From assembly GCA_016748015.1 (NCBI GenBank), contig JAAOMT010000046.1:943580-1007579 (forward strand): a stretch of DNA of 64,000 nucleotides. Reading direction: 5' to 3'. Below are positions 8,657 to 59,000 of this stretch, piece by piece. This DNA comes from Geosiphon pyriformis uo1 (lineage: Eukaryota > Fungi > Glomeromycota). Both the position numbers and the translations under genes were made by a program. Under the pieces are notes generated by a model. The model saw only the letters and a list, made by a program, of their open reading frames with translations, was not told the DNA's origin and did not search any database. Position 1 is the stretch's first letter; each line of letters opens with the position of its first letter.

Positions 8657-8717
8657 TTTTGTGTATTTTTGGGATGTTCTGTTTCTGTGAATTTATAATC
8701 TCACAAAGAACACCAAA

Positions 8718-9607
8718 TGTTACGGGTAAACTGAATAGGGTATGGTAGTAACGTTTGGTGCTTTATTTTTGGGTCTTTCAAAGTTGTCTGCTCTTTCTGC
8801 AGTGTTAATGTTATCAGTCTCTGAAAATCTATTCCTGGATGTAAGTCTACCTGCTGAGTTTTTTGGTTATAAGGCACAGAGTTTGTCTTTTGTTAATTGT
8901 AACATTTTTCATAAATGTGAGCTTTCTTTTTCATGCTAACAAACACAGTCATTAGGGTCTGGCATTGTTTTTTCGCCTTTCTGGTAAGCTACCAAGATAA
9001 CATTAATATCCAAAACTTAGAGGGAGCTTTCTTCTTTTACCAGGCTATTATGAAGTCTATTTCAAAACAGTCGATTTTTCTATGTTGCCACTCTAAACAA
9101 AAAAAAAAAGAAAAGAAAAGAAAAGAATTAGTTCCTGTCAATCACCATGATCAAGAGCAATTGGTCCAAATTGTTAAGAGTTTGAAACATTTATGTTAAT
9201 AACATCTGTTCTAAAACAAAGGTAGGAAATACTGATTTTAATTTCAATTAAAATCTGTAAGATTGGAGAACATGAATTGGTAAATTGAATTTTTTTTGTT
9301 TTTTATAATTATTGTATTTTGGACTATGGATATATGATAAGTATAATACAAAGTAAAATTAATTGCTAACTAACTGTCTTTTTAACTTCTACAACTATTT
9401 GCTTTTATATATTCTTTTGGTTTTATAGGATTGCTTTCAATTGCTTCACTATTGTTAGCTATTGTTTTGTTATTGCTAGCTATTGCTCATTATTGCTAGT
9501 TATTGTTCATGTTTGTCTTATGTTATCTCGAGTTGTACCACATTTTTCTTGTCATGTTTTTTTGTTATGTTTTCCCATAGCTTTTTGGTTTTTCTACTTG
9601 GGTAACA
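8718..9607 (-). repeat. H 5' LTR
   Basis: TGTTAC/GTAACA termini, adjacent to the PBS. Shares CCTGGTAAAAGA...TAGCTTACCAG and GCTCTTGATCA blocks with the B/C/D/F LTRs. Confidence 0.85.
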
Positions 9608-14069: not shown

Positions 14070-14217
14070 AATTGTAGCTATTTTTATTATTATTATTATT
14101 TAACGAATGCAGTCTAACCACTATCTAGTATACAGAAACAAAGCAAAATGAATCAAACTAGAGGTGGCTCATGTGCTTTCTACACATGACGAGCCACTTG
14201 AGCCCATCAAGGCAGCA

Positions 14218-18899: not shown

Positions 18900-19873
18900 T
18901 GTTACCAGACAAAATTAGAGATATTATTTAGCATAAAATTATCTTATAATTCCTATCATTAATTAGCATTGTTTCAAATTATCACTTATTACATTAGCAA
19001 AAATGTCCGAAATTATTATTTAATTAATAATCCAAATTATACACAACACAAATGTAACCTAATTGTGATGATCAATCATGCAATACTCTGAACTATGTAA
19101 CATTCAAAAGTTTGCCGAAATTTATAGAAATTCGCCGAAATAATTGATAGCTCACCGAAATATCTAATAGTTCGCAGAAATAACTTGTAGTTTGCCGAAA
19201 TATATCTTTAGTTCAGCGAAATTGTAGAAAATAGCAAAGTTCAAGTTCATAGAATAGTGTTACGACAAGTTGTATAAAAGAAGAGCTTCTCTCTTCGAGA
19301 AAATGTATCTTACTTTAGATTTAACAATTAGAATCATCTTTTACACACAAAAACAAAATAAATATCAAATAATTCGAAAAATCAAATTCTGAATTATTTC
19401 ACTTTTGAAATTAACTAATTCCTACTAAACAGTTTGAAATTGATTAGCTACCAATTTCAGTAAACTGTTAGTGACTCCAGGCCTGGATAGAAAACGTTTC
19501 CCTTGACAGAAATTCTATTTCTTTTACATTTCTTTTATTTTTCTTTTATTTTCTTATTACAATCATTAGGGTAGCCTACAGACAAGATTCCTGTAGAAGA
19601 GTTGACTTTCACAGCAAAGTAACTACACATTTTTAGTGAGCTTTTAGACGAGTAATTCCTGGGAAAGAGTTGATGTTTACTACAATATAACTACATAAAA
19701 GCAACTGGCAAGGAATTGGCCATTCCACTCATAAGTCCAGCAGCTCAAATTATAGGAGATAATTTGAGGATAAATTCAGTTATTGGAGGTTTAAACACTT
19801 CCCATAATTGTAAATTAACAGCATTACAACAAACATACAAGAGCTAAGAAGAGACCAAAAACCTCCAGTAACA
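18900..19873 (+). repeat. A 5' LTR
   Basis: TGTTACC...AGTAACA; TATAAAA at about 19274; followed by the PBS. Confidence 0.95.
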
Positions 19874-19918
19874 TTTGGTGCTCTTCTATGAAAACAACAC
19901 AGCAAAAACAACTTCAAA

Positions 19919-26967: not shown

Positions 26968-27088
26968 TTTAAATTTATTATTATAGTTATCTTCTTATAA
27001 TTTAGAAACAATCTCACAAAAACAAAACAAAAATAACATAAAAACCCATGCACCAAAAATAATTTTCTTTTATTTCAAATCGCTTATA

Positions 27089-27808
27089 ATGACTATTCCT
27101 CAAAACATTCAACAATTATCCCAAAAACTAATGTTAGCTTTAAAAACAATACCCGAATTATCCATTACTGTTACTGGAAACCACATTAATTATACCCAAA
27201 CAGAAGTAGTTACAAATTTAGCCCCAAATTCACAAAAATATCACCCGTATAAGAAGAACACAAGAAGTTATACTAGAATTCACCTGCCAGAACTTTTAAA
27301 ACTTGCTTTAAGAGAAAATCTAATGCTCACTCCGATTAGTATTCCACCAAATGCTACAATTCAACAAAGACTTCAACTGTGTCTCAATGAGAAAAACACT
27401 GAATATCCTCCAATCTATAGATATTTTCACATTAGAAAAACACTCTATGAACAAAAACTGGAACTTACAACAGTAAACCTCGCAAAAGAAGCTATTCAGA
27501 AACAATTCCACAACAAATTCAAGACAACAGCTGGATCAACAAACAGTCGCTACAGGCTCAGAGCTGCTCTTAGACTTTATGACCTATTTCACACCTGTGA
27601 AAACGTACTACAAAACCCAATTTTTCAACTTTTAAAGATTCAATACATTAAAAAGCTCACAGAACTGAAATTTCAACAATTTTCAGACCAAATTTCTTCA
27701 ATAATTTTGGATTATTATCTGGAAATGACAAACAGTACTTGGATTTCGACGGAGCTCAGTTTTGAGAAGGAGGTTATGTTATCAGACGAAATTAGAGATA
27801 TTATTTAG
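27089..27808 (+). CDS. A ORF3, intact 239-aa protein of unknown function in the env position
   Basis: Open frame with homologues in H, D, E and F. No evident signal peptide or transmembrane segment. It runs 32 nt into the 3' LTR. Confidence 0.8.
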   Translation: MTIPQNIQQLSQKLMLALKTIPELSITVTGNHINYTQTEVVTNLAPNSQKYHPYKKNTRSYTRIHLPELLKLALRENLMLTPISIPPNATIQQRLQLCLNEKNTEYPPIYRYFHIRKTLYEQKLELTTVNLAKEAIQKQFHNKFKTTAGSTNSRYRLRAALRLYDLFHTCENVLQNPIFQLLKIQYIKKLTELKFQQFSDQISSIILDYYLEMTNSTWISTELSFEKEVMLSDEIRDII

Positions 27809-28746: not shown

Positions 28747-29915
28747 ACAATCAGGTCTTGAATAATCGGAGTTTTAACAAGTTTTAACAAGTTTATCAAA
28801 GGTAAGTTTCGAATGTTCAGGGTTTTAATTTAATGAGTTTTTAATGAATTTATCAAAGATAAGTTTTGAATATTCAGAGTTTTAATGATCAGATTTTGAA
28901 TAATCAGAGTTTTAATTTAACGAGTTTTAACAAATTTATCAATAGTAATTTTCGAATGTTCGGGGTTTTAATAATCGGGTCTTGAATAATCGGAGTTTTA
29001 ATTTAATGAGTTTTTAACAAATTTATCAACAGTAAGTTTCGAATGTTCAGGGTTTTAATGATCAGGTTTTGAATAAACGGAGTTTTAATTTAACAAATTT
29101 TAACGAATTTATTAATAGTACATTTTGAATGTTTGGAGTTTTAATGATCGGGTCTTGAATAATCGGAGTTTTAATTTAACGAGTTTTTAACAAATTTATC
29201 AATGGTAATTTTCGAATGTTCGGGGTTTTAACAATCGGGTTTTTGAATAAATGGAGTTTTAATTTAACGAGTTTTTTAACGAATTTATCAATAGTAATTT
29301 TTGAATGTTCGGAGTTTTTAATGATCAAATCTTGAATAATCGGAGTTTTAATTTAATGAGTTTTTAACAAATTTATCAACGGTAAGTTTTGAATGTTCGG
29401 GGTTTTAATGATTGGGGTTTTAATGATCGGGTTTTGAATAAACAGAGTTTTTTTTTTTTTTTTTTTAATTTAACGAGTTTTAATGAATTTATTAATAGTA
29501 CGTTTTGAATGTTCAGGGTTTTAACGATCAGGTCTTAAATAATCGGAGTTTAATTTAAAGAGTTTTTAACGAATTTATCAACAGTAAGTTTCGAATGTTT
29601 GGGGTTTTAATCATCAGATTTTGAATAAACGGAGTTTTAATTTAACAAATTTTTAATGAATTCATCAATGGTACGTTTCGAATGTTCGGGGTTTTAATGA
29701 TCGGGTCTTGAATAATCAGAGTTTAATTTAACGAGTTTTTAATGAATTTATCAATAGTAAGTTTCGAATGTTCAGGGTTTTAATGATCAGGTTTTGAATA
29801 AACGGAGTTTTAATTTAACAAATTTTTAACGAATTTATCAATGGTACGTTTTGAATGTTTGGGGTTTTAACAATTGGGTCTTGAATAATCAGAGTTTTAA
29901 TTTAATAAGTTTTTC
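28747..29915. repeat. Tandem array of ~87-bp units (about 13 copies) with alternating A/B variants (~173-bp dimer); degenerate copies at about 18740-18899
   Basis: The GAATAA(T/A)CGGAGTTTTAATTTAACG motif recurs at about 28898, 28984, 29071, 29157, 29245, 29334, 29436, 29537, 29623, 29710, 29796 and 29883. Confidence 0.92.
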
Positions 29916-30049
29916 AAAGGTAATGGTAAAATAAGAATTTTGCGAATCCTAAGTGATTTTCCCTTGTTTTCTCTTGGTCTGCCACTTTTCTGTATAGTTG
30001 TTGTTGGTATTGATTCTTTGTTGGATTATATCTCACAGGGAGCACCAAA

Positions 30050-30977
30050 TGTTACAAGTGATTATTTGGGGTCTTAAATCAAATAACAAACCTGTAACTT
30101 GGTGCTCAATTGATATAATGTTGTTGGTAATATCTGAAGGTATTGTTATCTAAAAGTTTTGGTTGAGTCCTTTGTATAATGAACAGAGATTCAATAAGGT
30201 TGATAGTGGTTGTATTCTCAAGTTGTTTTCCCAATTTCTTTCTTAGCTTGGTGGCCAGATTTATTCTGACAGTTGTGCCCTTCTGGTAAGCTATCCAATA
30301 ATATATAATTCTATCCTTATTTATGGGTCTTTTACCAGGCTATTCGTAATGTCAATAACTCAGCGCTTAATCCTTTTAATCAATTTAGTGAACAACAAAA
30401 GAAAATAAAATAAAATAAAGAAAATAAAAGAAAATAAAAAAATAAGAAAATAAAATAAGAAATAAGTGTCCTGTCAATACTCATGATCAAGAGCTATTGT
30501 GCCAGCAGGTTAAGTAGTGAATAATAACATGGATTTGAAGATAATAAATAATTTCATTAATATGAGAGTGATTTCACTTCAAGTTATAGTATTCTATCTT
30601 TTGAAGGAAGGGTATTTAATAATTATGATTTTGCGAGTCTAATTGATTCTATGAGTCTAATTGACTCCGCGAATTAATTGACTCTAAGTCCCATTGACTA
30701 ATTTTCTAACTTCTGATACTACTGCTATATATACATATTTGAGATTCCTCAATTCCTTAATTCTTCATGTCAGAAATCCTGGAATTTCTGGAATTCTGCA
30801 ATTCTTTTGAGAAGAATCCTGGAATTCTGGAATCCTGTGATTCTTTGTGTGAAAATTCTGCAATTTCTGGAATCCTGCAATTCCTCTGAGAGGAATCCTG
30901 GAATTCCACATTTACTATGTCTACCTATAATTGGCTAATTTATATGCTAATATACTTTCTATATTTTATGAGTAACA
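30050..30977 (-). repeat. B 5' LTR
   Basis: Near-identical to 17313-18224; adjacent to the PBS. Confidence 0.92.
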
Positions 30978-31377: not shown

Positions 31378-33370
31378 ATGCCAACCAACTGAGTCATAAG
31401 CTTTTTATATATCTTGTAGAACCACTCAAATTTCATGACTCTTTTCAAGAGCATCTTCAACAACAGAGCCAACAGCAAAAACAGAAGACCAGGTTGAAGT
31501 GTCTTTCAAAACTGAGAAGTTGTTACCATGCAGGATGCCAAACTTGTTGTACATAAACATGATATAATCTAATAAAATCTTAGACAGAATCTTCTTCGCA
31601 GTTTCAATAAGTGCAATTGGCCTGGTGTTTGTCAAAACCCCATCCTAGTTATATGGTTTGGGGATCATAGACACCCACACCTTCTTCCAAGAAACAGGAA
31701 CATTGCCAGCTTTCAAACAAGCATTCAATAAATCTAAAAGACAAACCATCATTCTATCACCCTCATGCCTTCACAACTTATTGGAAATTCTAGATAGGCC
31801 AGCAGCTTTGCCATCAGACAACCTACTGACCACTAAAGACAACTTGCCCAAACTGATGTTACTCATCACTTCTGAGAAAGCATTGTTATCTACATGCACT
31901 AGAGGGACATATTGGGGAGTTCATACACCAGGTAAAACAGGACAATATTTCCTTTTGCAAGTCCAGTCCACCATAATTTCATCAATCCTGGATCTAACTT
32001 TCTTTGGTTACAGAATCAGCTCATCCCCAATCACCAAATGATCCAGAACAACTTTGCAGAATGGCTATTCCAGGATACTTCTAATCATGCCACTCTTATT
32101 TGAGCCAAAACTTTCTATACGCTTATCAATTGCATTTCTAATGTATTCACTCTTGACAAGTTCAGCCTCATAGTATTTAGACTTCTAATACTCTTTTTTA
32201 ATCTTTAACAAATGACCACACAAAGCATCTGACTTCAATTTGTTCTGGAACATAACAAGAAACTTAAAAGCCTTGATATTATACAAGGTTGACCAGACCT
32301 GCACAAGCCAATCAAGCTCTGACATAAGACCCAAACACAGACACTTCAAAATTTTAGCTATTAAAGATTTTAACTTAAAAAACCTCAAAAACTGTTTGTT
32401 TCTTGAGCAGTCAAACTCACAGAACCAATGTTTGGAAAATACATCATTTGCTGAACCACAAACTGTATCCTTGAAAACCTCCCACATCCCATTCAGGTTA
32501 CCATTCTCTTTGGTGACCAGGAAGAAATCTGAAAACAAATTCAAAAAAGCCAAAGAAAGCTCCTTAAAATGCACCCACTTAGCTGCATCTGCATTTTTGA
32601 TCCCAAATTTTTATCAGTTTTTGTTAGCCTGTTTTTGAATACTGTTCAGATGGGCATCTACCAACTCTTCTAACCCTATTGAAATCCCAACCATATTATG
32701 ATTGGTATCAAAAAATTCAGATACCAAGGCAACCTCTTATCTAACAACAGCTGAGGCCAAATTTTTATTAACAAAAATGTAGTCAATAACTTTTCTAACT
32801 TCTCGTGATTTGCTCCAAGTGCTTGATTTGTGCAAGAGAAATCCACCTAATAAGTTGACCAAGCCTAAGTCTGAACACTTCCTGAAACTGGCACACTTCT
32901 TAGTCCTATTTTCATTGAAATCACCACACAGAACCACAAAAAAACTCATATTTACAGCCTTGGAAATGAGTGCATTGACACTAGCAGCCTGAACAAATTT
33001 TGTTTTGGCCAAAACACCAGCATACAAACTTAAAAATATCACTGAAAGCTTATTCCTGAATAATAAGCAAACAGAAACAATCTGGCCAGAAATCTCTTCA
33101 ATCTTTGAAACATATTAAGCCAAGGAGCTATTCATCACAATAACCACATTTGTATCAAGATAATTCTCCTCCAGACCAGAAGTGAAAATTCTAATATCCT
33201 TAAACCTATTTTTAATCCAAGGCCCAACATTTTAACTTTAACTTAGTTTTAGTAAGAACAAAAACCATGTTACTAGATTCCAAATGCCATCTAATAATGT
33301 TCTCTTGTTTAGCCAAATTTGTCATATCTCTAACATTGCACATGGCAACTTTCTACACAAGACTGGTCAT
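31378..33370 (-). pseudogene. LINE-1 ORF2 N-terminal part: AP endonuclease and RT start
   Basis: KVAMCNVR, VLCGDFNE, KVIDYIFV, TNTRPIALIETAKKILSKIL, AYDSVGW. The ATG overlaps the ORF1 stop (TAATG, 33372-33368). Confidence 0.9.
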
Positions 33371-35210
33371 TAAGAAAGTTGATTAACAGGAATCATACTA
33401 GTATTTTTTATCTTAGCCGAAAGGCCCATAACCATAACTGACAGATTGTTCAAAGTCTCTTCCATTTTGGAGATAACTGAAGGATCAAAAACCACCATTT
33501 CTGCAATAGTCTTACCACTAGTGACCACACCCGAACCCTCACTTATCACTATATCTGCCTCTTGATTCTGTGATGAAGGAGTCACCAATGGCTAACATCC
33601 AGGGCTAAGCTGGGAAACTGTTGGCCCAGGTGTATCCAACCTTTTAGCCAGCTTATTAACATGCTTTGCAAGACTGGCAAGACTGCATTTAAGAACAGCA
33701 AACCTATTATTCAATTTTATAGACACCAGCAGGATAGGCTTCATCTCCGAAAAGAAGCCAGCTTTCAACAAAATGTTCCAACCAGAAGAAGAAGAAAGAG
33801 ACAACTCACCAGCAATTTGTGCTCATAAGACACCACCAAAAGAAACAAAATAAGCCACTGAAGCTGAGCATTTGGCATATATGGCAGCCAGCCTACTTTT
33901 ATCTGAGTTTGAAAGAGTTTTCTATAATAAAGCACCAGAAGAGACATTCTTTTTCTCACTAACAGAACAGGCCAATGATATATGGCCCAATTTCCCACAC
34001 CCAGCACATTTGGCCAAAACAAAACAAAACCAGTACAGATTGGCTCCTTTTAGAATAGGCATGGTTTTTATGACAGCCTTCAATGACTCAGCAGAATCAA
34101 AACAAACAGTAGCACACTTGGTCCAGGCATAAGAAACCGAGTGATGGTTAATTACACAAGTTTTCCCACCCACTAAAGCAACATAATTCCAAATATTATG
34201 TGCATTGGTTCTCATAGGCAGAGTGTACAAAAGAGCTTTGTAAACATCTCATGCATCCCATGATTCTTTGTCTATATTGGATCTAGCAACCCACACTGCA
34301 TTTTTCTCAATCAGGATAGACCATTTTGTTGTGACCAAATTAGCATAATCAATTTGTTCAAATTCAATCACTGCTTTTTGCCACAGCCCTACCAACTGCA
34401 TCTTAATCGACTTAATTAATCTGAATTCGGATAGCACAGTGTGCACAGCCTCTGCTAATGTCCCAATTGGAATTTCCTTTAACACCACAGCCCAATTTGA
34501 ATGCCCAGATGATTTCTTGAGATTGGTGTTTACCAAGATCTTCACCTCTTCAGTTTTTTTTGAAGTCTGCACCAAACTCAATTCAGAAGTAAATGTTACT
34601 CTTATGATCCCAGCAAATTTTGAGGGAGTAGAAGCCTTCCCCCAAAACCATTGATTTTTGAAAATAACTTTCTAACTACCACAAGTTTTTCTTGAGCAGA
34701 CTTCTCAACAACATTGTCCAAACTAATGTCCAGAGCAAAAGATTTCTTAATAGAAACATTGACCAAGTTTTTCAAAGGGGGAGGGAGAACCACAAGTTTG
34801 TCTAACAGTATGTTATCACTATTATCATCCAAGAAGTTAATTTTCTCCAGCAGTTTTTCCAGCATTCTCTTGGTAATAGTTTTTTTTGAACTTTTAAGCA
34901 TATGTTCCGAGTCTTTACTATTGAAAGCCTTATTATCTCCATAATTAAAGCTGATTTCTTCAACCAAACACTTCTTTTCCATGTTCACACTATTAGACTT
35001 AGTGATATCACCAGTCTCAGAATTTCAAGACCAATCATTTGACACCTCAGCAATAGCAAATTTCCAATTACCAATGTTATTCTCCAAAGCACCATCTCTT
35101 CTTTTTTTTCTAGGTTCAGCAGACTTAACACCAATATTAAAACCAAGTTCTATAATAGACTTGTTCAGAACAGCAATACTAAGGCCAATGATGGCCTTGT
35201 AATCAAGCAA
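33370..35210 (-). pseudogene. LINE-1 ORF1 (RRM-like + CCHC zinc knuckle + coiled coil)
   Basis: VVLKEIPIGT...QKAVIEF (RRM-like), CAGCGKLGHISLAC, and heptad-like LASLAKHVNKLAKRL. The start position is approximate. Confidence 0.75.
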
Positions 35211-36418
35211 AAACAGTTTGGATTTAGCATGCTGAATGGTAAAAAAACTTCTTTCAGAAAATTTTTGGCTTTTTTTTGGGAATTTGGGATGAATGATAGA
35301 AAGAAGTTTTTTTTTTTCTAATTGTAGCTATTTTTAATTGTTAATCAATTTTTGTAATAAAAATAATATTAAAAAAAACTATTACTTTTTAAGATATTTT
35401 TAAGATTAAATTAATTAATTTTTTTGTTTGTATAGCTTTTAATTTTAAAAATAATTGAATTAAAATTAAGACTTTAATTCAAACTTTTTTTTTTTATTAA
35501 CATTTAACAAATGAAGTCCAAACACTGCCTAAAGCAATACATTATACAAATAATCTAAACTAGATGTGAATTATGCACTTTCTATATGTGACTAGCCATT
35601 CGGACCAATCAGAACAACACTATACATCTATATGAACAGAAACAATATCACCAATGCCTGAAAAAAACAAACAAGACTTACAAAAACTGAAACCAACACC
35701 AATTGCCTCTGCAACACCCAGTAACCCAACTACGCTAGCTAATAGTACTGAAAAAAGCCCAGAAGTTGAGATAAAAACAGATCCATCACATAGAATAAGT
35801 TCATTTTTTTCCATAAAAGCACGGTGCTTGGCATAAACCAACCAAATGTCTTCCCAAAAAGCAAGACTAAACTTACATACAAAGACCACTATCTTCTAAC
35901 TCACCATTTTGGAATTCTTAAAAACAGAAACAGATTCACGAAACCAATTCTTGAAAATGAAACCCTTGTACAGAACAGTGCTAACCAAAATGTCAGATGC
36001 ACAGGTAAACAACAGCTGTGAGACATCTGAAGAAGAATGACTCAGATCAGATTGTACTCTTCAAGCTAATGCATAAATGTCCCAATAACCAAGCATAATC
36101 ATTGGCATCAAATGAACAAAAAAAAGCATGGTCCAAAACTTTGACATTACCACAGAACAAACACATCACACTAGGGTAATTCTTATTATAAAGCTGTTTA
36201 CACATGACAACAGTAAGCTGATAGTGTAATGTCTTTATAAAATATGTCCAAAAACCAGCAGTTCACTTGCTAGTGAAGCCAGCAGCCATGTAAGAATCTG
36301 ATGCCATACCAGTGATGATCTGAACCAATCAATATCCACATGCAGACTATCCACCACCACTCATGAACCAGAACCAATTTCCCAATGGGCACAATAAACT
36401 GACTGAAAAACATCCCAA

Positions 36419-37286
36419 TGTTACTTATAAAATATAGAAAATATAGTATTATTAGTCAGTAGATATTAGCCAATCAGATATAGACATAGTAAATGTAGAA
36501 TTCCAAGATTCTTCTTAGAAGAATTGCAGAATTCCAGGAATTTCAGGATTCCCTGACAAGGAATCGCAGGATTCCAGAATTCCAGGATTCCTCTTATCAG
36601 GAATCGCAGGATTCCAAGAATTCCAGGATTCCTGGTGCAAGAAATGGAGGAATTGAGAAATCTCAATTATGTATATATAGCAGTAGGATTAGAAGCTAAA
36701 AAGACAGACCTTCTCGTTTAGATTTAATCTAAGCAATTCTCCAAATTACTATCATCTAATAAATAACAATTTGTTATCTCAAATCCATTTCCATTATCAA
36801 CACTTCATATTGATAGTAATTGACACTTAACCTCACTAGAACAATAGCTCTTGATCATGGCTATTGACGGGATACTAATCTGCAAATTGCCTTGGCTTAT
36901 TTCTTTATATTTCTTTATATTTCTTTATTTTTTTTATTTTCTGTGATTTTGTTATTGTGCACTAACCAATTGATTAAAGCACTGATTACTGACATTAAGG
37001 ATTGCCTGGTAAAAGACCCCTGTGAGTGAGTAGAACACATACAGAAGATACGAATTACTTTCCAGAGGATTGTCAGCCACCAAGCCAAGAAAAAAATTGA
37101 CAGACTTGTGAATCTGGGAAGCTATGGATAAAACAACTATTGAATCTCTGTTCATTATACAAAGAACTCAACCAAAACCTTCAGATACCAACCACTTAAA
37201 GATATTATTAACAACACGAGTAGCTTTTGAGCACCAAGTTATGGGTTTGTTATTTGATTTGAGACCCTAAATAATCACCTGTAACA
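36419..37286 (+). repeat. D 5' LTR
   Basis: TGTTAC...GTAACA; GGAATTCC-type U3 array; TATATATA at about 36672. Confidence 0.93.
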
Positions 37287-37304
37287 TTTGGTGCTCCCTG
37301 TAAG
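37287..37304 (+). promoter_or_regulatory. Primer-binding site TGGTGCTC... (also at 19874, 44589, 56853; minus strand 30032-49, 8700-17)
   Basis: TGG lies 2 nt after the LTR end, complementary to a tRNA ending ...GAGCA-CCA. Identity not determined; elongator Met or Ile(UAU) are plausible. Confidence 0.8.
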
Positions 37305-37348
37305 GTATAATTCTACAGAAAACCAGCACCAACAAACACTATCCAAAA

Positions 37349-40300
37349 GTGGCAGAATCAGAAAATATAAGAGCAAACCATTTGGGATTTGCGAAATCCT
37401 TATTTCAACACTATTGTCAATACTTGGGATTAAACCACAATCATATATTCACCAAATTAGCCTTTAATTTCTATGTCAACAAAAAGATTTCCTCTTTGTT
37501 AGAAACACCAGTAAATACTGACTCAGCAAGGGAAACTTTCTACAGAGAATTAATTCAAAACACCAACTTACCAACAAATTATAATTTCGCATCCATTATC
37601 ACTGAGATCAACAAAGAAATTGAACATCACACCCAACAAAAATATCCAATTACATATGCTAGTAAAGGCAAAAAAAACCTACAAACACCAGCAGTAACTC
37701 CTAAAAAAATACAACTACCTATCTGGAAGAAGACAAGAGTTGAATCACCAACCAATCCATCTTATTACTATACACCCAGAAGTGCCATCAACATTTTATC
37801 AACAGGCGCATTCACATCAAACATAACATCAACATTTGAATGATTCTCATTTCAAAGTAAACAAAAAAAAACAGAATTATTAGGACCATACAGCAAATAC
37901 TTTGAAGGATTTAAATTGCAATTACCAACACCATTAGGAATTCAATTACCGCCACCTCAACCAGACTTTGGAACCAATACCCCATGAAAACTATCTGAAG
38001 AAAAGGAAGAAGAGTTGGAAGATCAAGAATTTACTTACCAGAACCTGATCACTAAAAACCCGGAAGTTGAAGCACCGAATTTTTAAACCCAGCAAAATTT
38101 AAATTTAGAAAACCCAGAAATTGAAACTCCGAATATTTAACCACCACCAAATCAGAACAATTAGAACCCCAATCTAATTAATCAACCAGACTTACCTCCT
38201 GTTATCATCATTAACCCACCACCAGTTGAACTAATTGGCCAGCCATCACAACCACCACAACCCAACTTAGATTCAATGACATATGTACCAATAGCCAAAC
38301 TCAAGAAATTTATTGGCAAAGAGAACAACACTCAAGCCTGGATCAATGACATTGTCAAAGCAATCACCGCCAATAACTGGAATGATGCCAAAACCATGCA
38401 AGTCATCCCCTATTTTCTCAAAAACACAGCAGACTCTTGGTATCACAGTCTAGCCCAAAAACCTCAGAACTTTAATGCCTTTAAGTTAGAATTTTTGAGG
38501 TATTTTAGTGATAACAACAGCATCAACCACTTGGCAAGTACTTTCACCACCATCAAACAAGAAGACACAGAAACAGTCACCACTTACTTGGGACACTTCC
38601 ATAGAAATCTGCACCAAATTCAGGCAATTCAAGCTGACTACTTTACAGCGCCACAGATCTTGAACCAATTCATCTGAGAATTGCACAGTAGCATCTTCCA
38701 GCAAGTACATCCAATACATCCAGCTGATTTCCTAACCGCCATGACTCATGCCAGAGATTTTGAAGCCACCGAATTAGAAGCTAACCACATCCAAGCTGTG
38801 AATTTAGTAATGAATAAATCATCTGACCTGGATTCCAAGCTAAAACAATTCAATGACAACATCAATCAGAAATTAGAGGGCTACTTAGCTAACAATTGTG
38901 CAATTTATCAGCCACCCCAGTGACATAATGATTTAGGAAACATGAATTGTTTCCAGAATCCATCACATTCAGGATTATCCACTAATTAGTCATGACAGCC
39001 AGAAACGCGTGTCTGCTACAACTGTAGTAAACAAGGGCATATTAGGACAAACTGCCATACTTATAGCAATCCACAATCAGAAAATCATTATCAAAACCCC
39101 GATTGCCAGTTTCAGACTTCAAATCACCAATCCAATCAAGAGCAATATCAAAATGCTTATCTGCCTATGACGCAGCAACCAATTTATCAGTTAACAATAT
39201 ATCAACCGCCAATTTATTAGCTGCAGTCACCAACAATTTATCAACTACAGCCATAAGTCATTTATCAGCCACAGCCTCAAGTAATTTATCAACCCCAACA
39301 AGTTCAAATGCCACACCAAAACTTAGCTACAATGACATCAGAAAACCTGAAATCCAGAATTACCCAAAACTGAAGATCAGCGATGGTTGTTAAGCAACCA
39401 ATTCTCAGTTCATCAGGCCAACAATCAGGATCTCGTCAGCAGAATTTGGGTATTGGTTCCACCCAAAACCCAAATTCCCAGAACTATTTAAGTCTTCTGG
39501 TTACCCCAGAAAACATCATCTCCAACAACCCAGAACTTGATCAACAACCAACAATACTTACCAACAATATTCCACCAGCAATTGTTACCAACAATGAGTC
39601 TTTAGCAGCCATTTTTTTATTTGAACTCGAGAAAGTTATGTCAGTTCCCTTATTTAGTGAAGCAGTTTTGGAAAAAAAACCCATTACTGCCATGTACACT
39701 GATGCAAAAGTTAATGGCCATTCCATCAAGTTAATTCTTGACAGTGGTTCAGCAGGCAGCATTATCACATGACAACTCATGAATCAATTAGGTCATCAAG
39801 TTGATCGAGCTACTAGCATTAGAATCATTACTGTCGATGGCACCACAAAAATATTTATTGGTGAAATCAATAACTTCCCAATTGAAGTTAATGGCATCAT
39901 TACTCCCATCAAAGTCTTGGTGATGAAAGCAACCCAATACTAAGCACTAGTGGGCAATAATTGGTTGTCTAAAAACAATGTTGTCCTCGACTGAATCATA
40001 CAGAAGCTTCAGCTTAGCCAAAATGGCCAACACACACGAGTACCGGCAACATGTAGCTATTTCAAACCTAACAATGCCATGACATCAGCACCACTTATTG
40101 ACCTCAAAGAGAAAAAAATAAAGCCTACTTGGGAGGCGTACCAAGTATCATGGACTGACGTCAACCACAATGAACTGTTGCCAATATTCGCCTGAGATGA
40201 CGATAACAATAGAAAAGAGGAACAAAAAAAAGAACCTACCTGTAGAACTACTATCAATGCTTGGATCGATGACAAAGACCACCATGAGCTACCACCAATA

Positions 40301-43300
40301 CTATCATGGGATGACAACCCCAAGGGAAAGCAAAAAAAGGAACTGATCTGGGAAACAGACAACTTAATCTGAACCAACAACAATGAAAGGGAACCAACAC
40401 CAAGCTGGAAATGGGAAGAAAGCAACAAAGGGAAAGAAAAAGTGAAAGAAGAAGAGCCACTGCCAACAAACCCATATCTCTCCTATTAACACACAACACC
40501 ACAACAATTCACTTATCGCCAACCCAAACTAGTATGTATTTATTGTGGCAAAAAATTGTCATCAATGGGTGCATGCTGTAATAACAACAAAAAATATTAA
40601 ACAGCAACCAAGTTTTATTATCGCGCATGCCTTGTCAAACATTTTGAAAGACCAAAATGAGTGGGAAAATGGGATAATACACTATGTTTAGCCTGTGAAG
40701 AAACTCTTCTCGACGAAGAAATGTGGAATGACATTCTTGGGAGAGGAGGAACATGCGATGTTTCCTGCCAATACATGATCCTCATCAGCCACTGGATTGA
40801 GAAAAGAACACCAATAGAAGCTATCTGGAGAAGAGCTGTACAGCGATTAGACAGTTGTCTACACAATGACAATGAATTATGGCAAATGGCAATCACAAAA
40901 ATTGAAGGCATGTTACCAGAAGAAATCAAGACAATTAAAAACAACTCACCAGAACCCATTGAACTTGACTGGGACGCAGAGCCAGTCATAAATTTCCTGG
41001 AACCAGAAGAGTTCTATGAACACTACCAAAACTTGGCGCCCACTAGAAAAGAGCAAGAACAATGGCTAGCACAATTGAATACAAGACTGTGTCATCATTG
41101 TTTAATTCTCAGTGACTTTGAATATTGTGATGATTGTAACCTCATTTACAATCCATCACCATGCATGATCTACACAATCTCTGAAGAGGAAGAACCAATC
41201 AACAGCTGTGCATCGGAGTCAGAATTACCATTCGATTCCAATTCAAACTCTGACAACGATAACGACGAGAATAATGGTTTCAGCTCTGTTTAAAATGGCA
41301 ATGACAATGACAATAATATCAACTCAGATTCAAACTCTGACTCAAACTATAAACAATATATCGTGCTTCCTGATCTCACCAAGGAACAAGAACTGAAATG
41401 GTTCAGTGATAATAATAAAGGTATTATGCCAGAACGTGTGCATAATACTGATGCCAGATTTGACTTGAAATATTCAGAAAAAGATGCCATCAAATTGGAA
41501 CCACATTTATGCACCTGCATTAATCTAAAAATAGCACTGAAAATCCCAGCAACAACAATGGTTCAACTAGCATCTCAGAGTAGTTTAGCAAAAAGAGGGA
41601 TTAATATAAGAGGAGGAATAATTAATGCAGGATATGTAAGAAATATTATCGCCATGCTACAAAATAACTCAGAAAAGGCCTATATAATAAAGCCAAATGA
41701 AAAGATAGCACAGGCAATATTCTTACCTTTGGTTAAGATAGCTCAGTTAGTACCAATAGGAAACAAAGAAGAGTTAGAAATAACAGCAAGAAGGATACAG
41801 GGATTTGGGTCAATAGATAGAATAGAGGTACCAGTTAATATGGCGGAGGAAGAAATTGTTGGCCAAGAAGAAATTATCTCAACCAGTCAAGCAATTTCCA
41901 TTCCACCATATGACCAGTACATAGTAACAATAGAAAGAAAAGTAAAGGACCAAGCACAAATTTTTGAAGCAGAAGCAAGTCTTTGTGAATCAGAAGAAAT
42001 TGGACTCATCAATCTCCACATACCAGCCAAAAACTATAGCTGCATCAAAATTCCCATTTACAACAACACCAGAAGTGTTGTCAATATACTAGAAGGAACC
42101 ACCATTGGATATTTAACTACAAAAATAGAGGATCAACCACCAAGCATTATTTCAGACTTTCCACAACTTTGTGGATATGTTGATATCACATTACAAACAA
42201 TATATGGATGAAATGAATGTTACTTGCTCCAACCAGAACAATTGGAACAAATGAACATAGAAAATTTAAATCCATTCCAACATATGCAGCTCAAGATGTT
42301 GCTCAACAATTTTAATGACATCTTTGCCAGTAAAAACGAATTTGGCCAAACTGACATTATCTAGCATCAGATCAAGACTGGAGATGCAATGCCAATTAAA
42401 CAAAGAGCATACAAAGTGCCACCAGCCAGCCACGAGATTATTTGTCAAGAGATATACCGAATGCTTGACAATAGGCTAATTCAATCATCAATGAGCCCAT
42501 AATCATCATCAGTGGTACTTGTCCATAAAAAGAATAGAAAAATCTGATTTTGTGTAGACTACAGAAAATTCAATGGTGTAACTTGTAGAGACAGCTATCC
42601 AACTTCACGGATACAAGAACTATTCGACACTTTTGGTGGAAACAAATGGTTCTCAATATTAGACTTGGATAGTGGTTACTGGCAAGTAGCCATGGATCCA
42701 GCTGACAAAAAAAAAACAGCATTCACTACAAGAAAGAGAAACTTTGAGTTTGAAGTTATGCCATTTGGCTTAACTAATGCTCCAGCTACATTTCAATGGC
42801 TAATGAAAATTGTGTACACTGGCTTGTTGTAGAAATCAGTAGTTGTATACTTAGATGATACCAATGTGTTTTCAAAAACATTCGATGATCATCTACATCA
42901 TTTCCAACAAGTGTTCGAAAGACTATGATGAACAGAACTAAAGTTAAATGCAACAAAGTGCTTCTTCAGCAAGACAGAACTAAAATTCTTGGGACACATA
43001 GTCAGCAAAGACAGCATCAAAATGGATTCAGAGAAAATAGAAATAGTAAAGAACTTTCCAGTGCTGACCAATATGACAGAACTGAAATCATTCTTGGGTT
43101 TTGCCAGCTACTATCGACGTTTTATCAAGAACTTTTCCAAGATAGCGCAGCCATTCAACCAACTGCAAACCAAGAATACAAAATATAAATAGACAGAAAG
43201 TCAACAAGAAGCTTTGATATTCTAAAAAGAAAGCTCATTTAAGCTCTAGTACTGATCTATTCAGATTACAGCAAACCATTCATCATCACCACTGATGCAT

Positions 43301-43613: not shown

Positions 43614-46600
43614 TATTACTAAATGAAATTAGAGATATTATTTAGCATGAAATTATCTTTATAATTCTTATCATTAATTAGCATATTATTGTTTCAAATT
43701 ATCACTTATTACATTAGCAAAATATTTGAAATTATCATTTAATTAATAACCCAATTTGTACATAACACAAATGTAACTTAATTGCAATAATTAATCATAC
43801 AATACACCAAACTATGTAACATTCAAAAAGTTTGCCGAAATTTGTAGAAATTTGCCGAAATAATTGATAGTTCACCAAAATATCTAATAGTTCGCAGAAA
43901 TAACTTGTAGTTTGCCGAAATGTATCTCTAGTTCAGCGAAATTGTAGAAAATAGCAAAGTTCAAGTTCATAAAATAGTGTTACGACAAGTTGTATAAAAG
44001 AAGAGCTTCTCTCTTCGAGAAAATGTATCTTATATCAGATTTAACAATTAGAATTATTCTTTACACATAAAGACAAAATAAATATCAAATAACTCGAAAA
44101 ACCAAATTCTTTAATTATTACACTTGAAAAATCCTCAAAACCCAACTAATGTTTTGAAATTGATTAGCTACCAATTTTGGTAAACTGTTAGTAACTCCAG
44201 GCCTGGATAGAAAACGTTTTCCTTAACAGAATTCTATTTCTTTTACATTTCTTTTATTTTTTTTATTTTTTTACTATAATCAGTAGAGTAGCCTACAGAC
44301 AAGATTTTTGTAGAAGAGTTGACTTTTACAGCAAAGTAACTACACATTTTTAGTGAGCTTCCAGATGAGCAATTTCTGGGAAAGAGTTAACATTTACTAC
44401 AATGTAACTACATAAAGTAACTGGCATGGAATTGGCCATTCCATTTATAAGCCCAGCAGTTCAAATTATAGGAAATAATTTGAAGATAAATTCAATTATT
44501 AGAGGTTAAATACTTCTTATAATCGTGAATTGGCAGCACAACAATATTAACAGCATTAAAGAAAAGAGACCAAAAACCTCTAGTAACATTTGGTGCTCTT
44601 CCACGAAAATAACACAGTGACAACAACTTCAAAAATGGCGACTCAAACAGATTCAAGAATTCTAGAGTATTATTAGTCAATCAACACCCACTGCAAGTAG
44701 AGATTTAACATCCCAGACGGAATTGAGACATTCAAGAAAACACTTTACCAGTACATTGAAAATTGCATCAACAATTATCTTCTTAGAGACTACAACATTT
44801 CAGAAGTTAAACACAACTTATATGAAAGCTTAGTACATTACTCTTGTCTAAACACTCAGGATTTTAACAGCCAAACACTTGAAACATACTTCCAAGAACT
44901 CAATTTCAATATCATTCAGTATTGTGAAGAGAATTACCCAGTAGAACAGAAATTTTCTCTTAGCTTTGAATTGAAAACAGAAGAAGGGAAAGGAAAAAGG
45001 AAACAAAAACTCAGAACTACCCCAAATACATCTAAAACCACTGCCAAACATTTACAAACTCCAAAACAAGAAACCAGCTTTAAATTACCACTCTCAATCA
45101 CATCATTTTCAGCTTCACTTGCTTAACTGCAAACACCAAGCTCACTACTTATTTAGTTTTCAAGAATAGAAGATTTTCAGTCACCCAAAAGCCCTATTCA
45201 ACAACAGGAACCAATATTAACCAGCACAAACCTTATTGACTACTTAGCAGAAAATTGAAGTAAAGAGACTGAATCAGAACAAAAAACAGAAGACTCAGAA
45301 AATGAAGAAGAAATGGCCTTCACATATATTGCAAAAATCCCTGAGTTCACAGGAGAAGACAGTAAAACCAGTCCTCAAGAATGGCTTGACAAAGTCTCAA
45401 AAGCAGGAGATGCAAATAATTGGAACACTGCCAGAATGTTAAAAGCAATTCCATACTTTTTACAAGAAACAGCTGGTGAATAGTTTGAAAACTTGGAAGT
45501 CCCACCAGAAAACTGGGAAGCATTCAAAACTGCTTTTCTAGAACAGTTCACTGACAATAATACTTCCATTACCCTTCGAAATTGGTTCCGAAATATCAAG
45601 CAAGAACCAAGTGAATCAATTATGACCTATCTTGAGAAATTCAACAAATTGCTTAGAAGAATTCGCCAATTGGAAACCAATGAATACTACTTCAATGCAC
45701 AAATCTTAAATCAATTTATTGCTGGACTAAAAGACAAACTTATCAAAAAAGTTTGCCTACATGCACCAGAAGATTTAGCCATTGTTATTCAACAGGCGAA
45801 AAACTATGAAATGGCCATGGAAGAAGCCAATCATACCAAACTTGTTAACCTGGCTATTGGAGAAACCAGCTCAGCAGCTGAAGAAAAGATTGACCAATTA
45901 ACCAAGAAAGTTGAAAACTACTTCACCAACCAACAGCAACAACAGCAGCCACAACAATCACAGCAAACACAAAGATACCAACTCCCACAAAGATGAAATC
46001 AAAATAACTTTGCACCACTTTTTAATAACCAGCCTCAGAATTGCCATTACTGTGGAATCCCTGGCCACTGGAAAAGAGATTGCAGAAAGCTACAACAAGA
46101 TCAACAAAATAGGAGTAATCAATATTATCCTCCACTACAGCAATCTTATTATCAAGTACCACCACCAGCTTACTATCCACTAAGACCCCAATACCAAAGT
46201 AACTATTATCAGTCCGCTCTACAGCCAATCCAACAGCAATACCAACAACCATCCACACAACATTATCAAGTGTCTGCTCGAAAATTGATTCCACAAAATC
46301 AATTCACACCACAAAATTGATACCAAGTAAACAACAATAGAATCAATTCAAACAACTATTTGGTTCCCCGAAATTCAGCTCAACCAAAACCCAACCATTA
46401 TCACACTCAATCTAGTTATCTTATGATGCCAGAAGAACAGGATTTTTGCTATACTGCACTCTCAAAAGATAGAGCTGCAGCACAACAACAAAACCCTTTC
46501 TATACTCTTACCACAATCCTACCAGCCAGAATTACTGAAAATGCCAACCTTTTAGATATATTCCCTTTCGAATTTGAAGCAAATAAATCACCATTTTTGC

Positions 46601-52957: not shown

Positions 52958-53823
52958 TATTACTCATAGAATATAGGAAATATAGTATTATTAGTCAGTA
53001 GATATTAACCAATCAGATATAGACATAGTAAATGTGAAATTCCAGAATTCCTCTGAAAGGAATTGCAAGATTCCAGGAATTTCAGGATTCCCTGACAAGG
53101 AATCGCAGAATTCCAGAATTCCAGAATTCCAGAATTCCTCTCATCAGAAATTGCAGGATTCCAAGAATTCCAGGATTCCTGGTGCAAGAAATGGAGGAAT
53201 TGAGGAATCTCAATTATGTATATATAGCAGTAAGATTAAAAGTTGAAAAGACAGATCTCTTTGTTTAGATTTAATCTAAGCAACTCTCCAAATCACTATC
53301 ATCTAATAAATAACAATTTGTTATCTCAAATTCATTTCCACTATCAACACTTTATGTTGATAGTAATTGACACTTAACCTTACTAGAACAATAGCTCTTG
53401 ATTATGGCTATTGATAGGATACTAATCTACAAATTGTCTTGGCTTATTTTTTTATATTTCTTTATTTTCTTTATTTTCTGTGATTTTGTTATTGTGCACT
53501 AACCAATTGATTAAAGCACTGATTACTGACATCAAGGATTGCCTGGTAAAAGACCCTTGCAAGTGGGTAAAACACATACAAAAGATACGAATTACTTACT
53601 AGAGGATTGCTGGCCACCAAGCAGAGAAAAAAATTTACAGACTTGCAAGTCTGGGAAGCTATGAATAAAACAACTATTGAATTTCTGTTCATTATACAAA
53701 GAACTCAACCAAAATCTTCAGATACCAACCACTTAAAGATATTATCAACAACACGAGTAGCTTTTGAGCACCAAGTTATAGGTTTGTTATTTGATTTGAG
53801 ACCCCAAATAATTACTTGTAACA
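52958..53823 (+). repeat. D 3' LTR
   Basis: Matches the 5' LTR; the first dinucleotide has mutated TG>TA. Confidence 0.93.
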
Positions 53824-56004: not shown

Positions 56005-59000
56005 TGTTATTCATAAAAAGAAAACAGATATAGAAAAAATAATAAACCAATAAGAAAATAATAGTTAGCACATGAGCACATTGCTCAGCAATATGGAGCA
56101 ATGTCAGAAATCACAGCATATTACTCAGCAATGTGGAGCAATATTAGAAATCACAGCACAATGCTCAGCAATATGAGCATTGCTTAATAAATTATAGCAC
56201 ATCACTTGAGAATGTGAGCAATTTTGTAGAATCCAAATTATGTATATATAGTGATAGCATTAGAAGTAGAAAGAACAGACCTCTCAGTTTAGATTTTGTC
56301 TAAACAATCTTCCAATTTACAAATATCAAATAAATAATTATTTTTTATCTCAATTCCACTCTTCACTATCAACACTTTATATTGATAGTAATTGATACTT
56401 AACCACACTAGAACAATAGCTCTTGATCACGGCTATTGACAAAATACTAACTTGTGCATTGCCTTGGTTCATTTCTTTATTTCTTTTATTTTTTTTTCTT
56501 TGATTTTATTGTTGCATATTAATTAATTAAGGATTAAAGTGCTGAATTATTGACATCACAGATAGTCTGGTAAAAAACCCAGAAATAAGGGTAGAATCAT
56601 ATATATATTAATGGATAGCTTACCAGAAGGGCACGACTGTCAGATTAAACCAGCCATCACACTGAAGACAGAAATTGGGAAAACAACTTACCAACCATAT
56701 TGTTATTGAATCTCTGTCTATTATACAAAAGACTCAACTCTAAAACCTTCAGATACAACCTACATACTAGTATTACCAGCATTATCAAGATATTGAGCAC
56801 CAAGTTATAGATTTGTTATTTGCTTTGAGACTTCAAATAAACATTTGTAACATTTGGTGCTCCCTATAAAGTATAATCTTACAGAGAACTGGTACCAACA
56901 ACAATCATCCAAAAGTGACAGAATCAGAAAAAATAGGAGCAAACCATTTAGGATTTGCCAAATTCTTATTTCAACAGTACAGCCAACAATTAGAATTAAA
57001 CAATAACCATTTTCCAGCAGAATCAGCCTTTAACTTCTACATTAACAATAAAATCACAGACTGCTTAGGAGGAACAGTTAACATTAAATCCACAAGGAAG
57101 AATTTCTACACAGAATTATTTCAACATACCAGCTTACCAAAAAACTACAGTTTCGTACCAATCATTAAGAAAATCAATCAAACTATTGAGAAGTATACAC
57201 AACAACAATTTCCCATCCCTTATGCAGACAAAGACAAAGAAAAATTGCAAACACCAGCAATAACACCAAAACAAATACAACCACATACTTGGAAGAAAAC
57301 CAGAGTTGAATTACCAACAAACACATTATACTACTATACACCCAGAAGTGCATCAACATTTTATCAACAGACACATCCACATTACACATAACATCAACCT
57401 TTGGACAACTTCCATTTCAAAGTAAACAAAAAAAAGCAGAATTACTAGGAACCTATGGCGATTATTTTGAAGGATTTAAATCATGATCACTGACACCATC
57501 AGGATTTCAATCACTGCCACTTCAACCAGATTTTGAAAACACGAGTCCCTGAGAGATAACAGAATCAGAGGAGGAAGAAAAAGAAGTCGAAGATCAAGAA
57601 TTTACTTACCAGAACCTGATTCCAGAAAATCCGGACATTAAAACCCCAAACTTTTAAACTCAGCAAAATCTAAATTTAAAAAATCTGGAGATTGAAACCC
57701 TGAATTTTCAAATGCAGCACAATCAGAATGATTAAAACCCCAAAACAATTAATCAGCAAAACTTACCTCTAATAATTGTCATCAATCAATCACCAATTAA
57801 ACCAATTATTGAATCAATTCAACAGCAGCCACTTCAACCATCCCAACAACTACAACAGCCACTTCCACCACCACAACAACCACCTTAACAACCACTAAAA
57901 CAACAAATCATAGTACTAATGGCATATGCTTCTATTGCCAAACTTGAAAAATTCACTGGTGAAAAGGACGATGTCTAAGTGTGGCTAAACAATATGCAAA
58001 AAACCATCACAGCCAATAGATGAGATGATGCCAGAGCCATACAAGCCATCCCCTATTTTCTCCAAGATACTGCTGATTCATGGTATCAAAGCTTGGTTAA
58101 CAAACTCTAAGATTTTAATGCATTCAAGCTTGTGTTTCTACAATATTTTAGTAATAATAATAGCATCAACCAATTAGCCAATACCTTCATCACAATTAAA
58201 CAAGGAGAAACTAAAGCAGTTACCATTTACTTGGGACATTTTTACAGGAATTTGTGCCAAATCCAAGCAATTCAAGCTGACTATTTTACAATGCCTCAGA
58301 TTCTAAACCAGTTCATTTGTGGATTACACAGTAGTATCCTTTAACACATACATCTAATGCATCTAGCAGATCTGCAAGCTGCCATTACAAATGCCAGAAA
58401 TTTTGAAGCAGCTAAACTGAAAGCTAACCATGTCTAAGCCATCAATCTAGTGATGAATGAATCATCTGAATTGGATTCTAAGTTGAAACAATTCAGTAAT
58501 TCTATCAACCAAAAATTAGAGGAATACTTAGCTAACAATTAGGCAATCTATCAACCTCCACACCAACATAATAATCAAGAAAACGCAAATTGTTTCCAGA
58601 ATCAGTCGCATCTATTATTATCAACCAATCAACAGTGACAACAGGAAATTCGTGTTTGCCACTATTGTGGTAAACAAGAACACCTACAAATTAATTGCCA
58701 CTGTTGTTTAAATAACCAATGATCGGGAAATCAATATCAAAATCCCGATTGCCGGTTTCAACCTCCAAATAATCCACCAAACTCAGAGCCATATCATCAG
58801 AATTACCTACTTATAATGCAGCAGCCACTTTATTAACCACCAGTATATCAAGTGCCAATTTATTAATTAATGACACCAGCAATATATCAGCTGTAGTCAC
58901 AAACCATTTATTAACCACAGCCTCAGGTAATCTATCAGCCCCAACAAATTCAAACACTGTCACAGAACTTACCTCAAAACAGAACCCAAAGGCCAAAATT

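What the first reader, a model, noticed from the sequence alone, without database searches (positions are those of the whole stretch)
37229..37296. Every LTR family carries a U5 'anti-PBS' that folds back onto its own primer-binding site
Seen: in B/D/F-type LTRs the consensus is GAGCACCAA-GTTACAGGT-ttg-TTATTTG-loop-CAAATAA-tc-ACCTGTAAC-at-TTGGTGCTC, a three-helix hairpin. In H, GCACCAAACGTTAC pairs with GTAACATTTGGTGT (8705-8764). In A/E, GAAGAG-ACCAAA (19848-59) pairs with TTTGGT(G)CTCTTC with one bulge. Distance and sequence differ, but each matches its own PBS. Established: Tf1-type elements self-prime by pairing RNA 5' sequence to the PBS; TGG-starting PBSs are tRNA-primed; 3' tRNA fragments can target the PBS. 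Inference: a conserved switch that hides the PBS (translation versus replication, or protection from tRNA fragments), or a tRNA-mimic self-primer.
Basis: partly seen in the sequence, partly recalled or inferred. Interest (0 to 1): 0.75.

Follow-up and report, generated by a model that had tools for sequence, protein, structure and literature searches.

The report
Hairpin hides fungal retrotransposon primer site
In three families of Gypsy-type jumping genes from a Geosiphon-type fungus, the end of the repeat is predicted to fold back over the primer site; this likely gates a host tRNA primer, as in some retroviruses, rather than replacing it.

Summary
The complementarity is real. All six 5' LTR junctions in the window (three families of non-chromoviral Ty3/gypsy elements; Gag relatives all named Geosiphon pyriformis) have a U5 stretch that pairs with the TGG core of their own PBS (predicted probability 0.93 or more in the whole leader). 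Four of six beat shuffles clearly; 0 of 19 distant relatives do. 'Each matches its own PBS' is only partly true: the PBS core is constant across families and only the A/E extension is family-specific. Tf1-type self-priming is disfavoured: the TATA box lies 570-670 nt upstream, the junction is CA|TT|TGG mirrored by a 2-nt overhang at the PPT end, and A/E keep a PBS guanine that is bulged in the self-duplex. Best reading (0.6): a tRNA-primed element whose PBS is locked in a U5 hairpin until chaperones open it, like HTLV-1 or MLV. Self-priming by an internal nick remains open (0.22). Not tested: host tRNA match, RNA ends, covariation beyond this window. The scan noted self-priming candidates in other genomes before; this one differs by its tRNA-type junction.

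The parts
36419..37286 (+). 5' LTR of element D (868 bp, TG...CA, inverted ends)
   Evidence: partner 3' LTR 52958-53823, 4-bp target duplication
36672..36679 (+). TATA box of D, invariant in B/D/F LTRs; predicts the RNA start near 36700-36710
   Evidence: start site inferred
36758..36763 (+). AATAAA 86 nt after the TATA box (also in A, E, F at 84-86 nt)
37229..37237 (+). anti-PBS of D (5' arm of helix 1)
   Evidence: 8 of 9 columns invariant in 7 LTR copies versus 1 of 20 just upstream
37238..37285 (+). helix 2 (37238-46/37277-85, pairs the LTR end) and helix 3 (37249-56/37268-75) with 11-nt loop
37287..37288 (+). 2-nt TT spacer after the LTR's CA, mirrored by AA/TA between PPT and TG at 3' LTRs
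37289..37296 (+). PBS core of D, starting TGG
37298..37318 (+). small predicted hairpin just after the PBS (also predicted in H)
19847..19887 (+). element A: anti-PBS 19847-19859, 14-nt loop, PBS from 19876; G at 19880 bulged
44564..44598 (+). element E: anti-PBS 44564-44574 and PBS, same layout as A
56795..56862 (+). element F: three-helix hairpin with PBS 56855-56862
30040..30107 (-). element B: three-helix hairpin with PBS 30047-30040
8708..8762 (-). element H: anti-PBS 8762-8754, helix 2, PBS 8715-8708
38165..43213 (+). decayed gag (zinc knuckle at 39014), protease, dUTPase and RT of element D

Best explanation
These elements likely prime reverse transcription with a host tRNA, and the 3' end of U5 is predicted to fold over the primer-binding site, which would keep it closed until chaperones open it. 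Shown: the complementarity in six of six junctions, the CA|TT|TGG junction, the constant PBS core, a zinc-knuckle nucleocapsid in all three families. Inferred: the RNA starts about 30 nt after the TATA box, so the anti-PBS lies 500-600 nt inside the RNA; the primer is a tRNA whose 3' end matches 8-11 PBS bases; the hairpin blocks early annealing in the cytoplasm, and Gag/NC, perhaps with a host helicase or extra tRNA contacts, opens it in the particle.
For: (1) Junction geometry: CA|TT|TGG in 6 of 6 5' junctions, with AA or TA before TG at the 3' LTR starts examined; the same CA|TT|TGG occurs in 4 of 19 distant relatives as printed (L122, L125, L135, L155), and 18 of 19 have TGG within a few bases. 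(2) PBS positions 1-8 are identical in 5 of 6 elements and differ by one C>T in H, across families whose RTs are only 57-63% identical; positions 9-11 vary only between C and T, which one G-rich tRNA strand could pair. (3) A and E both keep PBS G7 though all four A/E LTR copies lack its partner; a PBS copied from a self-primer would be expected to lose it (inference). (4) TATA box at LTR position 197-380 in 6 of 6 LTRs, AATAAA 84-86 nt later in 4 of 6, and an 18-nt motif after the TATA box shared by D and H. (5) Sharp conservation of the arm: 8 of 9 columns versus 1 of 20 upstream in 7 copies. (6) Precedent: HTLV-1 PBS sits in a 10-bp hairpin that blocks tRNA annealing (PMC13366004, passages); NC opens MLV U5-PBS (PMC11181671, passages); Ty3's 5' PBS is 8 nt (PMC4974528, passages).
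Against: No host tRNA was available, so the match is untested. Opening 8 PBS bases costs 12-14 kcal/mol in B/D/F, about what a perfect 8-bp duplex returns (net -0.8 to +1.2); 11 bp gives -5.7 to -7.4, so extra contacts or chaperones are needed. None of 19 distant relatives has such a hairpin at z <= -3, so tRNA-primed gypsy elements do without it. The self-duplex runs up to the LTR boundary and is broken at the terminal A in all three families, as a nick site might be. F and H have AATAAA close to the LTR end, so the RNA 3' end is unresolved. No function of the hairpin was tested.
Confidence: 0.6

Rival explanations
1. Self-priming with a tRNA-like end: RNase H nicks the RNA at the 3' end of the anti-PBS (or an alternative start site lies there) and the released strand primes DNA synthesis, as in Tf1.
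For: Anti-PBS present in 3 of 3 families at different distances (15, 37 and 50 nt before the LTR end); A/E anti-PBS matches the A/E-specific PBS bases (-16.7 for A versus about -10 for B/D/F PBS); duplex ends at the LTR boundary; helix 2 resembles one Tf1 'pretzel' duplex (PMC10085805, passages); hairpin absent in distant tRNA-type relatives; an 8-bp tRNA duplex barely pays for opening it.
Against: Anti-PBS is 500-600 nt from the predicted RNA start, whereas Tf1 uses the first 11 bases (PMC7175516, passages); no compensatory change in the PBS duplex (only 3 rows there); bulged G7 kept in A and E; only 14 nt would be copied before the nick in A/E; RTs lie outside the chromovirus branch and no chromodomain was found after A's integrase.
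Confidence: 0.22
2. By-product: an old fold-back duplication of the primer/LTR-end junction, carried along without selection on pairing.
For: In B/D/F and H the 5' arm reads almost like the minus-strand junction (sequence). Covariation does not exceed shuffles: 1 pair with a double change, 112/500 shuffles reach the score. Whole-LTR nulls are weak for E and H.
Against: Arm invariant while the flank is not; 98.6% of cells paired in 7 copies; kept in three diverged families with different loops.
Confidence: 0.1
3. The hairpin mainly controls translation or 3'-end formation (hiding an A-rich poly(A) signal in the 5' LTR only, or slowing scanning to gag) or shields the PBS from 3' tRNA fragments.
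For: Helix 3 contains AATAAA in F and AAATAAT in B/D; the outer helix can form only at the 5' LTR; gag seems to begin 45-65 nt downstream.
Against: A/E has no helix 3; a more canonical AATAAA follows the TATA box; no RNA data.
Confidence: 0.08

Closest known systems
HTLV-1 PBS hairpin and MLV U5-PBS structure (retroviruses)
   Same: A tRNA-type PBS starting TGG is base-paired to nearby RNA (about 10 bp in HTLV-1) and must be opened by chaperones (PMC13366004 and PMC11181671, passages).
   Different: Here a fungal Ty3/gypsy element; the conserved PBS is only 8-11 nt rather than 18; structure is predicted, not probed; primer tRNA not identified.
Tf1/Tf2/Tj1 and the Tf1/sushi group (self-priming chromoviruses)
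   Same: An LTR sequence complementary to the element's own PBS, with a neighbouring duplex at the U5 end (PMC10085805, PMC4600332, passages).
   Different: Complement is not at the predicted RNA 5' end; PBS starts TT-TGG and is constant across families; no chromodomain; the helix after the PBS is a local hairpin, not a pairing with the LTR.
Ty3 of S. cerevisiae
   Same: Best PDB match of the RT (E 1e-55); short 8-nt 5' PBS (PMC4974528, passages).
   Different: Ty3 uses tRNAiMet with a bipartite PBS; no bipartite site could be tested here; no PBS-occluding U5 arm is mentioned in the passages read.
dUTPase-bearing fungal gypsy elements (PosPlaTy3-5)
   Same: dUTPase between protease and RT (PMC2864245, passages).
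   Different: Priming of those elements is not described in the passages read; relationship not tested.

Membership tests
Ty3/gypsy LTR retrotransposon | LTRs with TG...CA, target duplication, PPT, gag-PR-RT-RH-IN order | tested here: met
Tf1/sushi self-priming group | LTR sequence complementary to 10 or more nt starting 0-5 nt after the 5' LTR (criterion of PMC6317226) | tested here: inconclusive
   9 Watson-Crick pairs in B/D/F (10 with G-U), 8 plus G-U in H, 6+7 around a bulge in A
Tf1/sushi self-priming group | [quoted passage not shown] | tested here: inconclusive
   TATA box predicts a start 500-600 nt upstream; no RNA run was listed, so the start was not mapped
Tf1/sushi self-priming group | Chromovirus RT branch and chromodomain | tested here: not met
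   RTs group with Rhizophagus/Dentiscutata proteins (26 rows, SH-like 99), apart from chromodomain-bearing rows; no chromodomain after A's integrase at E 0.1 (only A scanned)
Tf1/sushi self-priming group | RNase H cleavage releases the primer | not testable with these tools
   needs biochemistry
tRNA-primed LTR element | PBS begins with TGG 0-5 nt after the LTR | tested here: met
   6 of 6 junctions
tRNA-primed LTR element | PBS complementary to the 3' end of a host tRNA | not testable with these tools
   no genome held, no tRNA gene in the window; one search shows only that virus-borne tRNAs with such an end exist
Retrovirus-like PBS-occluding hairpin | PBS paired in the folded leader | tested here: met
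   prediction only, 6 of 6
Retrovirus-like PBS-occluding hairpin | Structure probed and shown to limit primer annealing | not testable with these tools
   needs SHAPE and annealing assays

The most novel reading that the evidence does not exclude
A non-chromoviral gypsy lineage has copied its tRNA primer's 3' end into U5 and now primes itself from an internal nick that leaves a CCA-like end, or uses both primers: a living intermediate between tRNA priming and Tf1-type self-priming.
Probability: 0.2. Interest if true: 0.75.

Novelty: new variant of a known kind. Interest (0 to 1): 0.38.

Why it matters
PBS-hiding hairpins are known from retroviruses; my searches found no description for Glomeromycotina LTR elements (searches returned 0 papers; searches listed none on it). 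The case warns that 'LTR complementary to PBS' does not by itself mean self-priming, a criterion used in surveys. It also offers a route by which self-priming could arise repeatedly: an arm that mimics the tRNA end. LTR elements cover 41.2% of the G. pyriformis genome (PMC11952901, passages), so one genome holds enough copies to test this.

Tried and rejected
No whole genome held. No RNA holder listed, so no statement on expression or RNA ends. Contigs of one DNA run laid on the locus (22,376 records; 2,960) show a high-copy family; 8 of 11 loop positions and 10 of 52 stem positions carried listed variants, but short contigs bias detection near the 5' arm, so I do not use this as evidence. Gag scan of viral contigs: nothing. 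An exact 17-base junction pattern gave 18 viral hits, none with an RT: treated as chance. Protease-anchored metagenome scan: nothing. RT-anchored scans gave 78, 9 and 79 loci; none of those placed in the tree fell in the window's 26-row clade, so clade-wide covariation could not be run. Rfam: four weak matches (E 0.2-0.92), none at the hairpin. tRNA-end pattern in viral contigs: 80 of 84 hits are tRNAs of many isotypes, Met(CAT) 23: no isotype can be assigned. Supplements of PMC6317226 held as text had no matching PBS; its larger files may bear on the tRNA type. Lin and Levin 1998 was not held; Tf1 details come from later papers. Intervening DNA looks like non-LTR elements, not further LTR families (RNase H and weak RT in 1 of 12 frames; rest by eye).

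Full report
Setting. The window is a nest of decayed Ty3/gypsy elements with gag, protease, dUTPase, RT and integrase domains. All 120 listed of 154 Gag relatives are named Geosiphon pyriformis. Self-comparison and edge inspection define LTRs of 850-975 bp in three families: A/E, B/D/F (plus the interrupted LTR G) and H. Six 5' LTR junctions exist; each reads CA|TT|TGG. The four window RT pieces (three families) form one branch (SH-like 95) inside a 26-row branch (99) with Rhizophagus clarus and Dentiscutata proteins, apart from the chromodomain-bearing rows (FastTree, 204 rows; an earlier tree was unresolved at this level).

Observation. The D hairpin at 37229-37296 folds as described (z -3.96, 0/300); B, F and A are also significant, H marginal, E not. 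Folding each whole predicted leader puts the TGG core on the anti-PBS at probability 0.93 or more in 6 of 6. In a duplex test on the last 120 LTR bases, A, B, D, F give z -3.1 to -4.0, E -1.2, H -0.6; 19 distant relatives with both LTRs give -2.5 at best. Those controls are outside the clade, three had boundaries off by 1-3 bases, and one (L078) has no TGG. Against a whole shuffled LTR the duplex alone is much weaker (5 to 190 of 300). In seven B/D/F/G copies, 98.6% of cells pair, with one double change (G-C to A-U in the F/G subfamily), which does not exceed shuffles. The arm is conserved where the flank is not: 8 of 9 against 1 of 20 columns.

What varies. The PBS core is the constant part. 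Positions 1-8 are the same in five elements and differ by one C>T in H, whose arm still matches C; positions 9-11 vary only C/T. The arm moves: it ends 15 (A/E), 37 (H) or 50 (B/D/F) bases before the LTR end. Only the A/E extension is family-specific. A and E keep a PBS G that has no partner in any of four A/E LTR copies. This pattern fits a PBS held by an outside partner, with an arm that follows it (inference).

Where the RNA starts. All six LTRs have a TATA box at position 197-380; four have AATAAA 84-86 nt later; D and H share an 18-nt motif after the box. That is the usual U3-R-U5 layout (PMC3601003, passages, which also warns that borders need RNA data). It places the arm 500-600 nt inside the RNA. 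Tf1 uses its first 11 bases (PMC7175516) in a three-duplex 'pretzel' (PMC10085805). An internal nick could work only if the RNA's 3' end reached the LTR end; F and H do have AATAAA there, so this stays open.

Ends. TT after CA is mirrored by AA or TA before TG at the PPT side, which suggests 2-nt overhangs and a primer ending opposite the T of TGG, that is in CCA (inference from established retroviral integration chemistry, recalled). Distant relatives show the same junction with long PBSs that I recognise as tRNA complements from memory only.

Mechanism. Most likely a host tRNA primes, and the hairpin gates it. Opening costs 6 kcal/mol in A/E and 10-14 in H and B/D/F; a perfect 8-bp duplex only breaks even in the latter, 11 bp gains 1-7. 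All three families encode a zinc-knuckle NC. HTLV-1 shows this arrangement experimentally (PMC13366004), MLV too (PMC11181671), and Ty3 uses an 8-nt 5' PBS with extra contacts (PMC4974528). The host tRNA could not be tested; recalled candidates with such an end are elongator Met, Ile(UAU) and Thr, unverified.

Literature seen. Passages only: PMC6317226, PMC4600332, PMC5341516, PMC2864245, PMC10085805, PMC7175516, PMC11181671, PMC3601003, PMC13366004, PMC11952901, PMC4974528. Nine searches; none listed a paper on this structure in these fungi, but most subscription papers are not held.

Earlier scan notes. One search lists several self-priming candidates in other genomes, described as keeping the pairing with different letters and lacking a tRNA site; I did not test them. 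This case differs on both points. One search found no look-alike of this stretch.

Verdict. A real, conserved PBS-covering hairpin in one fungal gypsy clade; most likely a retrovirus-like gate on tRNA priming, with self-priming as the bold alternative. New variant of a known kind; interest 0.38.

Noticed in passing
window flanks of B (17309-17312/30978-30981), A, D, E, F: Target duplications are 4 bp; pairs read ATGT/ACGT, ATGA/ACAA, CCAA/CCAA, ACAG/ACGG, ACAA/ACGG, consistent with insertion into sites with a central CpG that later decayed.
   Followed up: partly
window 37349, and equivalent places in A, B, F, H: The apparent gag start is GTG after an A run in 5 of 6 elements and ATG only in E: possibly a non-AUG start.
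   Followed up: no
window 36842-37020 and matching U5 parts of B, F, H: U5 motifs shared between otherwise unalignable families (17-31 nt matches), a T-rich tract, and an inverted repeat at 56566-56627: U5 looks like a structured leader, perhaps with a splice acceptor.
   Followed up: partly
window near 36702: B and D share U3 but diverge about 30 nt after the TATA box; 34 contigs show loose ends at 36702: a mosaic junction close to the predicted RNA start.
   Followed up: partly
window 26987-27808: 273-codon open frame between integrase and the 3' LTR of A with no Pfam match.
   Followed up: no
window 28750-29914: Array of about 86-bp repeats inside the short non-autonomous element B.
   Followed up: no
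window 14000-16890, 31400-36400, 53830-56000 (minus strand): Decayed non-LTR-like elements with RT and RNase H similarity.
   Followed up: partly
L106-L184: Many bacterial or archaeal genome bins carry eukaryotic gypsy elements, probably host contamination.
   Followed up: no
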